From the NCBI RefSeq assembly GCF_001677475.2, contig NZ_CP015229.1: a stretch of 64,000 nucleotides of DNA; one strand, 5' to 3'. Source of the stretch: Escherichia coli (GTDB lineage Bacteria; Pseudomonadota; Gammaproteobacteria; Enterobacterales; Enterobacteriaceae). The notes under the pieces were generated by a model. That model ran no database searches and was not told the origin of the DNA. It saw only the letters and a program-made list of their open reading frames with translations. This document shows, in pieces, positions 10,182 to 12,820 of the stretch; the stretch's first letter is position 1, and each line of letters opens with the position of its first letter. A program made the translations under genes and the position numbers.

Positions 10182-10616
10182 TTACAGCCTCTGTAACGGA
10201 TTATCAGTTCCGATATTTTCCGGCGGCGCCTTCTGCCGCTCGCCCTCTCTGCTGTATACCCCGGTACCGCAGCGTGGGCAGCACTTTTCCCCCTCATAAT
10301 TTTCGTCACACATCAGACAAAACCACTTTCTCACCTTCACCGTATAATCCGGAACCGTCATGCCTTGCAGATGCAAACGACGGGCCTCTTTCTCTGCCGG
10401 GTCAAGCCAGGTGCATCGCAGCAGGATTTTCGCAGCAACAGTCATCTGGTCATGTTCAAACCACGGCGGTTGTCCGTCATTGCCCCGCTTAAGTGTTAAC
10501 GGACAACCACAGGACACACAGCACAAAACGTCCTGGCGGTTGTGCTTCGCGGCTTCTTTCGCCGTAACAAAATGGCCCTTGCTGTCATTCGCCATATAGC
10601 AGTTCAGAATTCGCAT
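10182..10616 (-). CDS. Cys-rich zinc-ribbon-like hypothetical protein (PWFEH motif)
   Basis: 144 aa; CCVSCGC...PPWFEH and C-terminal CLMCDENYEGEKCCPRCGTG; paralog of the 11562-11969 ORF. Confidence 0.5.
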   Translation of the reverse strand: MRILNCYMANDSKGHFVTAKEAAKHNRQDVLCCVSCGCPLTLKRGNDGQPPWFEHDQMTVAAKILLRCTWLDPAEKEARRLHLQGMTVPDYTVKVRKWFCLMCDENYEGEKCCPRCGTGVYSREGERQKAPPENIGTDNPLQRL

Positions 10617-10801
10617 ATCTCCTCCTTGTATCTTGACAATTGGTTAAAATAACTATGATTAGATTTGGCAAAGTGTATGTAGTCCGATCCCTCAAGGGAT
10701 TCATAGCCCGTAGCTCAGCGAATGGCGCATACACTGAGCCACTCATCTGAAACCCGAACAGTTGTCAGTACGCCATAACGCATTTGCAAGGATGGGTAAT
10801 C

Positions 10802-11528
10802 ATGAGTCAGCCAGGTTCACTTTGTGTGGGTATCGATGTTTCGAAAGCGATACTGGATATTGCCGCCAGCAGCGCTATTGAACAATTTTCTGTCGGCAAT
10901 GACAGTGATGGCTTTGACGCCATCATTGCTGAGTTGAGAATGTACGCCATTGCGCTGGTTTTAATGAAAGCCACTGGAGGACTTGAAACCGCCATAGTCT
11001 GTGCGCTTCAGGCAGAAGGTTTTGAGCTTGCCGTGGTTAACCCCAGACAAGCTCGTGACTTTGCCCGCGCCATGGGATACCTCGCGAAAACTGATAGTAT
11101 TGATGCCAGAGTGCTTTCCCAGATGGCTGAGGTTCTCAACCGGCATCCGGAGCGGGAACGCTTTATCAGAGCACTGCCGGATACTGAATGTCAGGTTCTC
11201 ACTGCAATGGTAGTTCGTAGGCGGCAGTTGATTACGATGCTGGTTGCCGAGAGAAACCGGTTGCACCCTGCTCATCCATAGAGCAGGAAAAGCATTAATA
11301 TCATCATCAAAGCACTGGAAGACGAGCTTGCGCGACTAGATGCTGACATGAACAGCCATATCCATAGCCACTTCAAAGAGCTTGCTAAGCGACTGAGCAG
11401 TATTAAAGGTGTTTTACATGCGACTGCTTGCCGCAGGAAAACCCAAAAAAGTGGCGCTGGTTGCCTGTATACGCAAGCTGCTGACTATCCTGAACGCAAT
11501 GCTCAGAAAGAACGAAGAATGGAATGAA
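10802..11528 (+). pseudogene. IS110-family transposase, truncated and frameshifted
   Basis: N-terminal MSQPGSLCVGIDVSKAILDIAA...AVVNPRQARDFA fits the IS110-type DEDD domain as recalled; frame breaks at 11281 and a short continuation follows in another frame; total far shorter than an intact transposase. Confidence 0.55.
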
Positions 11529-11561
11529 TCGTACCATCACGTTGCTCCATAATTTTTACGT

Positions 11562-11969
11562 TCAAGACAGTTGCTGAGCTGTCCGGGGAAGACTGAAACC
11601 TCCGGTCTGGCAGTGTGTGCAGTACCGCTCCCCATAATAATCGTGGTGACATTGTCTGCAGTGCCAGCTGGCTTTACGCACCACGGGTAAGGCATCCGGT
11701 ACGAATTGCTGCAGACGTTTAATCAACCGTATTTCTCTGCGCTCTGGCCTGACATAAGGGCACTGTTGACCGTGCTCTGTCAGCCCGTCGTCAGTGTGTT
11801 CAAACCAGGGACGTTCAGTGTCGTATTGCGGGTGATATCTGAGCGAACTGCCACAAAGATGACAGGTATAACGATCATATGGCGCAGTCTGTGCGGTACG
11901 GGCACCGGTCAGACGTCCGTTGCCATCAAATGCAATAAAGGATTTTGCGTACATAATCATACTCCTCAA
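11562..11969 (-). CDS. Cys-rich zinc-ribbon-like hypothetical protein (PWFEH motif), paralog of 10182-10616
   Basis: 135 aa; CHLCGSS...RPWFEH and C-terminal WHCRQCHHDYYGERYCTHCQTGG; same Cys spacing as the paralog. Confidence 0.5.
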   Translation of the reverse strand: MRSMIMYAKSFIAFDGNGRLTGARTAQTAPYDRYTCHLCGSSLRYHPQYDTERPWFEHTDDGLTEHGQQCPYVRPERREIRLIKRLQQFVPDALPVVRKASWHCRQCHHDYYGERYCTHCQTGGFSLPRTAQQLS

Positions 11970-12214
11970 CCGCCAGACGACACGCAGGCGTCAGCCGTCC
12001 CGGTACGGGCTGCGTGGTCAGAGTGTGAATGGCGGTTCAGTTAAAATCTGGATCCGGGGTTGGGTAAAGCAGGCTGGTTGTTGTTACAGCACTGTGGTTG
12101 TCACACAATGGCGCTCTGGCGTAAAAAACAACCAGTGGGAGAAAAGGTACATCGTTGCAGCCAGACAACAGTCCATTGTTTTGGTTTTACTGAATACTGG
12201 TGCGCCAGTCGTAC

Positions 12215-12820
12215 TCAATTCCGGCTACAGCCAAAATTACGCTCACCGGTACCGTTGACTTTGGTATACTCTTTCGCGAGATAGTCAGCACGGTTCAGCA
12301 TATCCCGTAAACCAGCATCATCATCGCGTTCCAGCCACACCACCGGCCTGGACGGAAAATTCGCCAGTGTGGCATAGCATCCGGCATCCACCCCCAGGGC
12401 ACTGCACCACGCCTGTTTAATCATCCCGGCCAGTGACCCCGGATCGCGGTAATCGCCCGCACCACACCAGGTATCACGGTTGACCAGCAGTATCAGGTGA
12501 TAGTGTTTTTTACCTTTGTTCTCCCCGAACTCCCGGGCCCAGACGTAATGCAGCCTTGTGGTATGTACGCGTTTACCTTCACGGCGCTTACGCTTCTGGT
12601 AAGCGTCGATTCGGGCTTTCAGGGCATTGATGAAGCGGGATATTACAGCCGCGTCCGTTGCTGCCGGTACATCCGGGAGACGCAGATCAACCCGCAATGC
12701 CGTCAGACGGGGATGAACATCCAGTGCGTGCAGCACCGTCTCACGGATACGTTGTTGCCAGAAGGGGTTGTATTTGTAGGTCATGGTTAAATCTCCGTAT
12801 GTTTCATACGGAATAGCCAC
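12215..12820 (-). CDS. YagK/YfjJ-like (inovirus Gp2-type) cryptic-prophage protein
   Basis: 201-aa ORF; MTYKYNPFWQQRI... start region and overall composition resemble the YagK/YfjJ family as recalled; likely start at the internal Met (12784). Confidence 0.5.
   Translation of the reverse strand: MAIPYETYGDLTMTYKYNPFWQQRIRETVLHALDVHPRLTALRVDLRLPDVPAATDAAVISRFINALKARIDAYQKRKRREGKRVHTTRLHYVWAREFGENKGKKHYHLILLVNRDTWCGAGDYRDPGSLAGMIKQAWCSALGVDAGCYATLANFPSRPVVWLERDDDAGLRDMLNRADYLAKEYTKVNGTGERNFGCSRN

What the first reader, a model, noticed from the sequence alone, without database searches (positions are those of the whole stretch)
10182..12820. Paralogous Cys-rich PWFEH proteins flanking an IS110 remnant, next to a YagK-like gene
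ORFs 10182-10616 and 11562-11969 (both minus strand) share an unusual architecture: N-terminal CxxC...PWFEH and C-terminal W-C-x2-C...Y-x-GE-x2-C-x2-C-x-TG. That is two zinc-ribbon-like halves with an invariant PWFEH motif. They sit upstream of a YagK/YfjJ-like gene (12215-12820), and an IS110 fragment lies exactly between the two copies. I do not recognise a characterised function for this family; duplication and retention in a decaying island region suggest selection.
Basis: seen in the sequence. Interest (0 to 1): 0.4.

Follow-up and report, generated by a model that had tools for sequence, protein, structure and literature searches.

The report
Zinc-ribbon gene pair beside island nuclease
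The two cysteine-rich genes are real, selected members of a catalogued but uncharacterised zinc-ribbon family, common in E. coli, that always sits next to a Rep-like DNA-nicking gene in the backbone of genomic islands, so it probably helps these islands handle their own DNA.

Summary
ORFs 10182-10616 ("ZrpB") and 11562-11969 ("ZrpA") are 33% identical paralogs, split by a 947-bp IS110 remnant (10627-11573), downstream of a YagK/YfjJ-like gene.

They are not an unrecognised family. Both match Pfam DUF7828 plus Zn_ribbon_11, and PGAP calls them "putative zinc ribbon protein". An uninterrupted, overlapping pair occurs in 2,983 of 5,426 complete E. coli genomes. No paper or solved structure gives a function.

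New here:
- The zinc ligands (CxxC..H..C and a C4 ribbon) and WFEH are conserved family-wide.
- dN/dS is 0.12-0.35.
- The A-then-B duplication is ancient and keeps its order across genera.
- In every lineage examined with enough flanking sequence, Zrp lies on the same strand as a YagK-type gene or its remnant.

The YagK protein has an HUH endonuclease fold with invariant HYH and YxxK motifs. The intact module is YagK, AlpA, ZrpA, ZrpB, a catalytically dead YagK paralog, then DUF2913. One metagenomic protein fuses Zrp to a dead YagK domain.

My best inference (about 0.4) is that Zrp proteins are zinc-dependent accessory subunits of the island's HUH DNA-processing module. The window's copy is a decayed, ordinary instance. 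Interest is modest.

The parts
12215..12820 (-). YagK/YfjJ-type ('inovirus Gp2 family') gene, a Rep-class HUH endonuclease candidate and first gene of the operon. PGAP-equivalent start is probably the ATG at 12784 (189 aa).
11970..12214 (-). 245-bp intergenic gap between the YagK-like gene and ZrpA. In most other lineages an alpA gene occupies this position. No feature was detected here.
   Evidence: Sequence read. AlpA lies between YagK and Zrp in L007, L010, L013, L017, L021-23, L025, L028 and L029. Promoter, terminator and repeat scans were at chance level.
11562..11969 (-). ZrpA, the upstream 'A-type' paralog (DUF7828 + Zn_ribbon_11). The likely true start is ATG 11960, preceded by GAGGAG. 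Its last codons were replaced by the IS insertion.
   Evidence: Pfam DUF7828 5.6e-31 and Zn_ribbon_11 3.4e-9. Groups in the A-type clade. dN/dS 0.18-0.21 against E. coli. Start context. Junction.
10627..11573 (+). IS110-family insertion, a degenerate 947-bp copy with a broken transposase. It is the same insertion event as in 612 E. coli genomes, plus an extra internal deletion of about 205 bp.
   Evidence: Pfam DEDD_Tnp_IS110 1.5e-19; NCBIfam transpos_IS110 scores 96.7 bits, below its 140 cut-off. Junction mapping. Comparison with L001. 612 genomes share the arrangement.
10182..10616 (-). ZrpB, the downstream 'B-type' paralog (DUF7828 + Zn_ribbon_11). The ORF is intact and keeps its strong Shine-Dalgarno, but it is cut off from translational coupling to ZrpA.
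   Evidence: Pfam DUF7828 2.5e-30 and Zn_ribbon_11 9.2e-18. AF2 model pLDDT 87. Groups in the B-type clade. dN/dS 0.27-0.30. SD.
9007..10101 (+). IS256-family (Mutator-type) transposase gene immediately beyond the ZrpB stop. It occupies the place where intact modules carry the dead YagK paralog (Y2) and DUF2913.
   Evidence: Pfam Transposase_mut 1.1e-111. Y2 and DUF2913 follow Zrp in L021-23, L028 and L029. No remnant of either was found in the window.
14349..14627 (+). AlpA-family gene of the same island backbone. In this Escherichia-type arrangement it is divergent from the operon and about 1.5 kb away.
   Evidence: Pfam Phage_AlpA 6.8e-9. Own AlpA HMM 1.4e-39.

Best explanation
ZrpA and ZrpB are two anciently diverged paralogs of a small two-zinc-module protein family. 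Each has an N-terminal CxxC..WFEH..C module (Pfam DUF7828) and a C-terminal C4 ribbon (Pfam Zn_ribbon_11).

The family is a backbone component of one class of enterobacterial integrative islands (CP4-44, SRL-PAI and pheV-island type). In intact form the operon reads: YagK-type HUH (Rep-like) nuclease, AlpA, ZrpA, ZrpB (reading frames overlap by 13 nt), a catalytically dead YagK paralog (Y2, Pfam UCP030791), DUF2913, and then variable cargo.

Shown here:
- family membership;
- conserved metal ligands;
- purifying selection;
- fixed A-then-B gene order across genera;
- strict linkage to YagK-type genes;
- the HUH fold and motifs of YagK;
- a natural Zrp fusion to a dead YagK domain.

Inferred: the Zrp proteins are zinc-dependent accessory subunits, probably made in equal amounts and acting as an A/B pair. 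They would work with the active and inactive HUH-fold proteins on island DNA once AlpA and the integrase have excised it. Their likely role is recognising or holding the nick site or the displaced strand for rolling-circle replication or single-strand transfer. This resembles the N-terminal zinc-binding regions that IS91-family and Helitron HUH enzymes carry in the same chain (from my own knowledge, not checked here).

In this window the module is decayed. No alpA lies between YagK and ZrpA. An IS110 remnant splits the pair. An IS256-family element replaces Y2 and DUF2913. Both Zrp ORFs and YagK are nevertheless intact.
For: - Family: Pfam hits far above cut-off for both proteins and for all 38 diverse members.
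- Ligands: eight zinc-ligand positions are 91-100% conserved. The AF2 model is confident, pLDDT 87 with both domains above 90.
- Selection: dN/dS is 0.12-0.35 for ZrpA, ZrpB and YagK, both window against E. coli and between Hafnia, Superficieibacter and Yokenella.
- Ancient duplication with fixed order.
- 13-nt overlap of the pair in E. coli, Klebsiella and Enterobacter.
- Linkage: a YagK-type gene or its remnant lies next to Zrp, with the same strand in all intact cases, in every lineage examined with enough flank.
- Fusion: P0173 residues 1-138 are Zrp, and residues 156-451 align to the whole neighbouring 350-aa YagK protein at E=5e-23, with HYH changed to FLH and the Y/K positions changed to M/M.
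- Dead paralog Y2 follows ZrpB directly in Hafnia, Superficieibacter, Yokenella, Klebsiella and Enterobacter. A faint remnant sits in E. coli.
- The N-module is distantly similar to CoiA_N, the N-terminal domain of a DNA-processing nuclease (15 of 38 members, best E=7e-5; PMC1189080).
Against: - There is no direct evidence of nucleic-acid binding or of any Zrp-YagK contact.
- Family pI is near neutral (median 7.5), which is not what is typical of DNA-binding proteins.
- Zrp is not required by YagK in general. The K-12 CP4-57 and CP4-6 islands, a Salmonella island and a Yersinia island have YagK/YfjJ without Zrp, as does one Pectobacterium island with the same 189-aa YagK subtype.
- The fusion protein comes from a single metagenomic contig.
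- No origin-like repeat or hairpin was found near the operon.
- Rolling-circle replication or HUH-dependent transfer has not been shown for these islands in any paper I could find.
Confidence: 0.4

Rival explanations
1. Zrp proteins are transcription regulators of the island or of host or helper genes. They would act like small zinc-finger activators carried by mobile elements, such as Ogr/Delta of phages P2/P4 or the RNAP-binding DksA/TraR type, downstream of AlpA in a regulatory cascade.
For: They are small zinc proteins encoded directly after the regulator and excision factor AlpA in most lineages. The best PDB sequence match is RPB9, an RNA-polymerase subunit built from two zinc ribbons and a linker, at E=0.002. 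One member hits Zn_ribbon_RPB9 at E=4e-4.
Confidence: 0.2
2. Zrp proteins are purely protein-binding adaptors or chaperones. They would assemble or stabilise the active and dead YagK proteins, or bridge them to the integrase/AlpA complex, without touching nucleic acid.
Against: The structural match is too weak to mean anything. Zinc ribbons attached to nucleases (CoiA_N, IS91, Helitron, primases) usually contact DNA; that is general knowledge, not tested here. This rival differs from the best explanation only in the ligand.
Confidence: 0.15
3. Zrp proteins are an anti-phage defence or counter-defence function placed at the edge of the island's cargo hotspot, unrelated to YagK chemistry.
For: They are the last backbone genes before variable cargo, and that cargo is often defence-related: SMEK_N/CTD10/MC6, McrB and an AAA_15/21 ATPase. 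These islands also carry antirestriction and RadC genes.
Against: There is no PADLOC hit, no significant PHROG family and no homolog in 50,697 phage records. They stay constant while the cargo changes, so they behave as backbone rather than cargo.
Confidence: 0.1
4. In this window the pair is a non-functional relic. The IS110 insertion uncoupled ZrpB, truncated ZrpA, and the rest of the module is gone, so nothing works any more.
For: The IS sits inside the ZrpA 3' end and removes coupling. Y2 and DUF2913 are lost and an IS256-family element abuts ZrpB. The island's left part is an IS pile-up.
Against: Both ORFs are intact with all ligand residues. ZrpB keeps a strong SD. dN/dS between the window and an E. 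coli copy carrying the same IS insertion is 0.18 (ZrpA) and 0.30 (ZrpB). The interrupted arrangement persists in 612 genomes.
Confidence: 0.1

Closest known systems
Pfam DUF7828 (PF25165) + Zn_ribbon_11 (PF11682, formerly DUF3279); PGAP 'putative zinc ribbon protein' / 'zinc-ribbon domain-containing protein'
   Same: Both window proteins are straightforward members, with both domains far above the gathering cut-offs. Near-identical genes are annotated in thousands of E. coli genomes.
   Different: Nothing differs in sequence terms. The family has no assigned function, so membership explains nothing about mechanism.
CoiA N-terminal domain (PF25164) and DUF7830 (PF25169)
   Same: They share a CxxC ... 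aromatic-x-H pattern in a short beta-rich module. Weak but recurrent matches appear in 15 and 16 of 38 members. In CoiA this module precedes a PD-(D/E)XK DNA nuclease (PMC1189080), so it is a zinc module serving a nuclease.
   Different: Scores are below the Pfam cut-off (18 against 26.3 bits). Zrp has no nuclease domain of its own and carries a second C4 ribbon. The partner nuclease is HUH-type and is encoded separately.
N-terminal zinc-binding regions of single-chain HUH enzymes (IS91-family transposases, Helitron Rep) (from my own knowledge)
   Same: Both combine a zinc-binding module with an HUH-fold domain. The P0173 fusion (Zrp followed by a YagK-like domain) reproduces that order in one chain. 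Helraiser is among the top structural matches of the YagK model.
   Different: No sequence or structural homology of Zrp to those zinc regions was shown. Here the parts are separate genes, duplicated into A and B, and the fused or adjacent HUH copy is catalytically dead. This is a resemblance in how it may work, not family membership.
Rep-class HUH endonucleases (parvovirus NS1/Rep, RepB of pMV158, SIRV1 ORF119, inovirus gpII)
Backbone of CP4-57 / CP4-6 / CP4-44 cryptic islands of E. coli K-12, Shigella SRL PAI, and Pseudomonas tmRNA islands (intY, alpA, Gp2-like, RadC)
   Same: The island kind is the same: AlpA, YagK/YfjJ (Gp2-like), YeeP-type GTPase, DUF932, antirestriction, RadC and CbeA/CbtA. 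SRL PAI has orf38 (no similarity), orf39 (YfjJ-like), orf40 (Hha) and orf41 (AlpA) in the same order (PMC6980539). The Pseudomonas islands share intY, alpA, a Gp2-like gene and RadC as a core (PMC12595487).
   Different: The three K-12 islands lack Zrp. CP4-57-type islands pair YfjJ with DUF3987 (YfjI) instead. The Pseudomonas paper mentions no zinc proteins.

Membership tests
Pfam DUF7828 / Zn_ribbon_11 two-domain family | DUF7828 domain above the gathering cut-off (25.7 bits) | tested here: met
   ZrpB 104.4 bits, ZrpA 106.5 bits.
Pfam DUF7828 / Zn_ribbon_11 two-domain family | Zn_ribbon_11 domain above the gathering cut-off (24 bits) | tested here: met
   ZrpB 64 bits, ZrpA 36.6 bits.
Pfam DUF7828 / Zn_ribbon_11 two-domain family | Conserved candidate metal ligands: CxxC..H..C and CxxC..CxxC | tested here: met
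   All eight positions are present in both window proteins and 91-100% conserved in 47 members selected by HMM coverage only.
Pfam DUF7828 / Zn_ribbon_11 two-domain family | Actual zinc binding | not testable with these tools
   Needs metal analysis of purified protein.
CoiA_N (PF25164) | Score above the gathering cut-off (26.3 bits) | tested here: not met
   18.1 bits, E=0.0019 for ZrpB. Best among 38 members is E=6.9e-5. This is a distant resemblance only.
HUH endonuclease superfamily, Rep class (for the neighbouring YagK-like protein) | HUH motif: His, hydrophobic residue, His, followed by a hydrophobic strand | tested here: met
   H106-Y107-H108-L-I-L-L; the triad is invariant in 34 homologs.
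HUH endonuclease superfamily, Rep class (for the neighbouring YagK-like protein) | Catalytic tyrosine motif (YxxK) C-terminal to the HUH motif | tested here: met
   Y180-L-A-K183; Y and K are invariant.
HUH endonuclease superfamily, Rep class (for the neighbouring YagK-like protein) | HUH nuclease fold | tested here: met
HUH endonuclease superfamily, Rep class (for the neighbouring YagK-like protein) | Site-specific single-strand nicking with a covalent 5'-phosphotyrosine link | not testable with these tools
   Requires biochemistry.
IS110 family insertion sequence (the insert between the two genes) | DEDD-type N-terminal transposase domain | tested here: met
   PF01548, 70.8 bits against a cut-off of 29.
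IS110 family insertion sequence (the insert between the two genes) | Intact full-length transposase | tested here: not met
   NCBIfam transpos_IS110 scores 96.7 bits, below the 140 cut-off, covering positions 1-146 of 343. The reading frame is broken, with an extra deletion of about 205 bp relative to the E. coli copy, which PGAP itself marks 'internal stop'.
Known anti-phage defence systems (PADLOC-DB) | Match to any defence-system protein model | tested here: not met
   No family at E up to 0.01 for ZrpA, ZrpB or YagK.
Ogr/Delta or DksA/TraR zinc-finger regulators | Sequence match to the family model | tested here: not met
   Neither family appears among the Pfam matches reported for the 38 members at E up to 1 (the tool lists only the 25 families hit by most members, of 71).
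RPB9 / TFIIS-type double zinc ribbon | Significant sequence and structural similarity | tested here: inconclusive

The most novel reading that the evidence does not exclude
ZrpA/ZrpB, together with the dead YagK paralog, are the DNA-specificity subunits of a split HUH relaxase/replicase. This enzyme would let the commonest class of enterobacterial genomic islands replicate or leave the cell as single-stranded DNA after excision. That class includes CP4-44-like islands, SRL-type islands, pheV islands and plasmid-borne islands carrying RND efflux clusters. If true, it would supply the missing transfer mechanism for islands long written off as 'cryptic prophages'.
Probability: 0.2. Interest if true: 0.65.

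Novelty: new member of a known kind. Interest (0 to 1): 0.33.

Why it matters
These genes sit in the backbone of islands that carry adhesins, resistance genes and defence systems in most E. coli genomes and many other Enterobacterales, yet how such islands move is poorly understood. This work shows that a zinc-ribbon pair is strictly tied to an HUH (Rep-like) nuclease, AlpA and a catalytically dead HUH paralog. That defines a concrete six-gene module that can be tested for excision-coupled replication or mobilisation. For this window itself the result is mostly clarifying. The finding is a decayed, ordinary copy of a very common, catalogued family, not an unrecognised one.

Tried and rejected
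- **PDB profile search.** It gave only a marginal RPB9 hit, which I rejected as cysteine-pattern driven.
- **Other family libraries.** NCBIfam, PADLOC and PHROGs gave no useful family for Zrp.
- **Literature.** Searches for DUF3279, PF11682, DUF7828, Zn_ribbon_11, DUF2913, UCP030791, DUF3296, PF11726, YfjJ, YagK and 'inovirus Gp2' found no functional study.
- **K-12 islands.** CP4-57, CP4-6 and CP4-44 were checked for Zrp homologs and have none.
- **Non-coding features.** Promoter, terminator and repeat scans around the operon were at chance level, and no origin-like hairpin was seen.
- **Genome scan.** With a tighter alignment only one peptide pattern was used, giving 8 loci, so the taxonomic census is thin.
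- **P0173 fusion.** The first comparison, against the 201-aa window YagK, was non-significant. Only comparison with the long-form YagK next door showed homology.
- **ISEc21.** I considered that an intact ISEc21 might occupy the same site in closer E. coli relatives. It does not.
- **Phage origin.** Rejected: no match in 50,697 phage records.
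Full report
**Observation.** The minus-strand ORFs 10182-10616 (144 aa, here ZrpB) and 11562-11969 (135 aa, ZrpA) exist as described. They are paralogs: 33% identity over 120 residues, E=3e-16. Both carry CxxC ... PWFEH ... C in the N-terminal half and W-x-C-x2-C ... Y-x-G-E-x2-C-x2-C-x-T-G in the C-terminal half. ORF 12215-12820 matches Pfam YagK_YfjJ_C at E=1.2e-45, and ORF 10784-11281 matches the IS110 DEDD transposase domain.

**The family is already catalogued.** Each protein matches two curated Pfam families far above cut-off: DUF7828 (PF25165, E about 1e-30) and Zn_ribbon_11 (PF11682, formerly DUF3279). 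In RefSeq E. coli genomes PGAP annotates the same genes as "putative zinc ribbon protein" and "zinc-ribbon domain-containing protein", next to an "inovirus Gp2 family protein". The family is very common. The uninterrupted pair from strain F1140 finds a match in 3,778 of 5,426 complete E. coli genomes. In 2,983 of them a single place covers at least 80% of the query, and a genome has a median of 2 places and up to 7. The exact arrangement with the IS110 piece is present in 612 genomes at about 94.7% identity. In sequence space, however, the family is narrow. An exhaustive profile search of 1.84 billion cluster representatives returned only 283 hits at E up to 1e-3. A limited genome scan found it in Serratia, Hafnia, Superficieibacter, Yokenella, Lelliottia and Ewingella. 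It also occurs in Klebsiella and Enterobacter. It is absent from 50,697 phage records. I found no paper on any of the family names.

**Selection and history.** Nei-Gojobori dN/dS is 0.18-0.30 for ZrpA and ZrpB between the window and E. coli. It is 0.12-0.29 between Hafnia, Superficieibacter and Yokenella orthologs, and 0.27-0.35 for YagK. The single outlier is 0.62 for ZrpA between two E. coli copies that differ by only 16 substitutions. A neighbour-joining tree places the upstream copies of Escherichia, Hafnia, Yokenella, Superficieibacter and Serratia in one clade (A-type) and the downstream copies in another (B-type). The duplication is therefore old and its order is fixed. In uninterrupted loci the two reading frames overlap by 13 nt in E. 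coli, Klebsiella and Enterobacter. That suggests translational coupling and equal production of the two proteins.

**The IS insertion.** Alignment with the uninterrupted F1140 locus places a 947-bp insertion at window 10627-11573. It cuts ZrpA about six codons before its natural stop, so the tail reads ...TAQQLS instead of ...TTQEEICEF. It ends immediately upstream of the ZrpB Shine-Dalgarno, AAGGAGGAG. The copy is the same insertion as in E. coli strain WP3 (L001), with an additional internal deletion of about 205 bp.

**Genomic context.** I followed divergent family members, down to 23% identity, to their contigs. In every lineage with enough flanking sequence a YagK-type gene, or a remnant of one, lies next to Zrp, and in all intact cases it is on the same strand. 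AlpA usually sits between or beside them. In one lineage (L007/L008) the upstream ORF matched only my own YagK HMM (E=3e-9) and has no Pfam hit. In the one apparent exception (L026), a decayed YagK fragment directly precedes a truncated Zrp. The surrounding islands share an integrase, variable cargo next to Zrp (an ars operon, defence-like genes, an RND efflux operon) and a divergent block. That block holds a YeeP-type GTPase, DUF932, antirestriction, RadC and CbeA/CbtA genes. The window contains the same block at 18.9-30 kb.

In Hafnia, Superficieibacter, Yokenella, Enterobacter and a Klebsiella IncFIB/HI1B plasmid the intact operon runs as follows:
1. YagK
2. AlpA
3. ZrpA
4. ZrpB
5. a second YagK-like gene, Y2 (PGAP "inovirus-type Gp2 protein"; precomputed Pfam UCP030791)
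6. DUF2913, present in Hafnia, Enterobacter and the Klebsiella plasmid; my search did not detect it in the Superficieibacter or Yokenella loci

Y2 has lost the HYH triad and the Tyr/Lys motif. One metagenomic protein, P0173 (454 aa), is a fusion. Residues 1-138 are Zrp. Residues 156-451 align along the whole neighbouring 350-aa YagK protein at E=5e-23, again with HYH changed to FLH and the Tyr and Lys positions changed to Met. E. coli F1140 and YP3 retain a faint Y2 remnant beyond ZrpB. In the window an IS256-family transposase gene (9007-10101) occupies that position, and no remnant is detectable.

**Reverse test.** Starting from YagK proteins gave mixed results. The 189-aa subtype, as in the window, carries the full Zrp module in Enterobacter but not in one Pectobacterium island. 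The 208-aa K-12 subtype in Salmonella, Yersinia and K-12 has no Zrp; in CP4-57-type islands (K-12 CP4-57, Yersinia) YfjJ is paired with DUF3987 (YfjI) instead. Zrp is therefore a component of one architectural class of these islands, not a universal YagK partner.

**Mechanism.** Shown: membership, conserved ligands, selection, ancient paired duplication, strict linkage to an HUH-fold gene, and recurrent adjacency or fusion to a dead HUH paralog. Inferred: ZrpA and ZrpB are zinc-dependent accessory subunits, probably acting as a pair. They would cooperate with the active and inactive HUH-fold proteins on the excised island, in nick-site or strand recognition or in complex assembly for rolling-circle replication or single-strand transfer. 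This is analogous to the zinc-binding N-termini of IS91-family and Helitron HUH enzymes (from my own knowledge, not tested here). I put this at about 0.4.

Rivals:
- transcription factors acting after AlpA (0.2);
- protein-only adaptors (0.15);
- a defence or counter-defence function at the cargo border (0.1; no PADLOC or phage support);
- a dead relic in this particular window (0.1; argued against by intact ORFs and low dN/dS).

Arguments against the favoured view are the neutral pI, the absence of any direct binding evidence, Zrp-less YagK islands, the single-contig origin of the fusion, and the lack of any published replication or HUH-dependent transfer for these islands.

**Verdict.** It is a decayed copy of a very common, already catalogued and still uncharacterised family. 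The added value is the module-level picture and a testable hypothesis. Interest 0.33. Novelty: new member of a known kind.

Noticed in passing
window 30000-54000: The core chromosomal genes here (gsp type II secretion, sslE, glcA/glcB) are only about 94.4-94.8% identical to the best-covering E. coli genomes. The window probably comes from a non-coli or cryptic-clade Escherichia rather than typical E. coli.
   Followed up: partly
window 10560-11625 against L001 12334-13617: The IS110 remnant and its immediate junctions are 98.7-99.6% identical to the E. coli WP3 copy, while the flanking zrp and yagK genes are only about 91-95% identical. This suggests a recent exchange or conversion tract centred on the IS.
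   Followed up: partly
L021 7405-8058, L022 7405-8058, L023 7315-8037, L028 9493-10059, L029 6151-6717: A second YagK-like gene (Y2; PGAP 'inovirus-type Gp2 protein', Pfam UCP030791) directly follows ZrpB. It has lost both the HYH triad and the Tyr/Lys motif, so it is a catalytically dead HUH paralog. In Hafnia, Enterobacter and the Klebsiella plasmid a DUF2913 gene comes next.
   Followed up: yes
L006 2797-4161 (protein P0173): A 454-aa natural fusion of a Zrp module to a full-length but catalytically dead long-form YagK domain. It sits next to an intact 350-aa YagK gene and alpA. It was seen on only one 4.8-kb metagenomic contig.
   Followed up: yes
protein P0072 (238 aa, from the representative search): A family member with two consecutive DUF7828 N-modules and a single C-terminal ribbon, so the modules can be duplicated independently.
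   Followed up: no
L028 (Klebsiella pneumoniae plasmid pRWS291.s3, record 73958-85600): The intact six-gene module lies about 2.4 kb upstream of an RND efflux operon (predicted adeF-like; it may be the tmexCD-toprJ type but I did not verify this) on IncFIB/IncHI1B plasmids. At least seven Klebsiella plasmid records show the same 50%-identity Zrp pair.
   Followed up: partly
window 12984-13184 (+): A 66-aa ORF with an N-terminal CxxC..CxxC zinc-ribbon-like motif and a hydrophobic C-terminal segment, divergent from the YagK-like gene. A 'hypothetical protein' CDS of the same 201-nt length is annotated at the corresponding position in E. coli, and the ORF has only sub-threshold Pfam zinc-ribbon hits.
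   Followed up: no
window 14706-15323 (+) and 17707-18873 (+): Two ORFs (205 aa and 388 aa) in the island backbone region with no Pfam match at all. 'Hypothetical protein' CDSs are annotated at the corresponding positions in the E. coli islands; I did not compare the sequences directly.
   Followed up: no
window 5500-10101: A pile-up of insertion sequences at the island's left side: a frameshifted IS3-family element (7540-8845), an IS256/Mutator-family transposase (9007-10101), and further transposase-like ORFs upstream. No tRNA gene is present anywhere in the window, so the attachment-site end of the island is missing or outside the window.
   Followed up: partly
L019 and L026 (contigs of 'Collinsella sp.' MAG Map_57_008): One contig assigned to an actinobacterial MAG (L019) encodes a Zrp gene 98% identical to the window's Escherichia-type ZrpB, and a second (L026) carries a more divergent Zrp relative (32%) with enterobacterial island neighbours. 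This is most likely enterobacterial contamination of the bin.
   Followed up: no
window 13529-13708 (-): An Hha/YmoA-family gene lies between the YagK-like gene and alpA. The Shigella SRL PAI has the same order, orf39 (YfjJ-like), orf40 (Hha), orf41 (AlpA), with an uncharacterised orf38 at the position where Zrp would be.
   Followed up: partly
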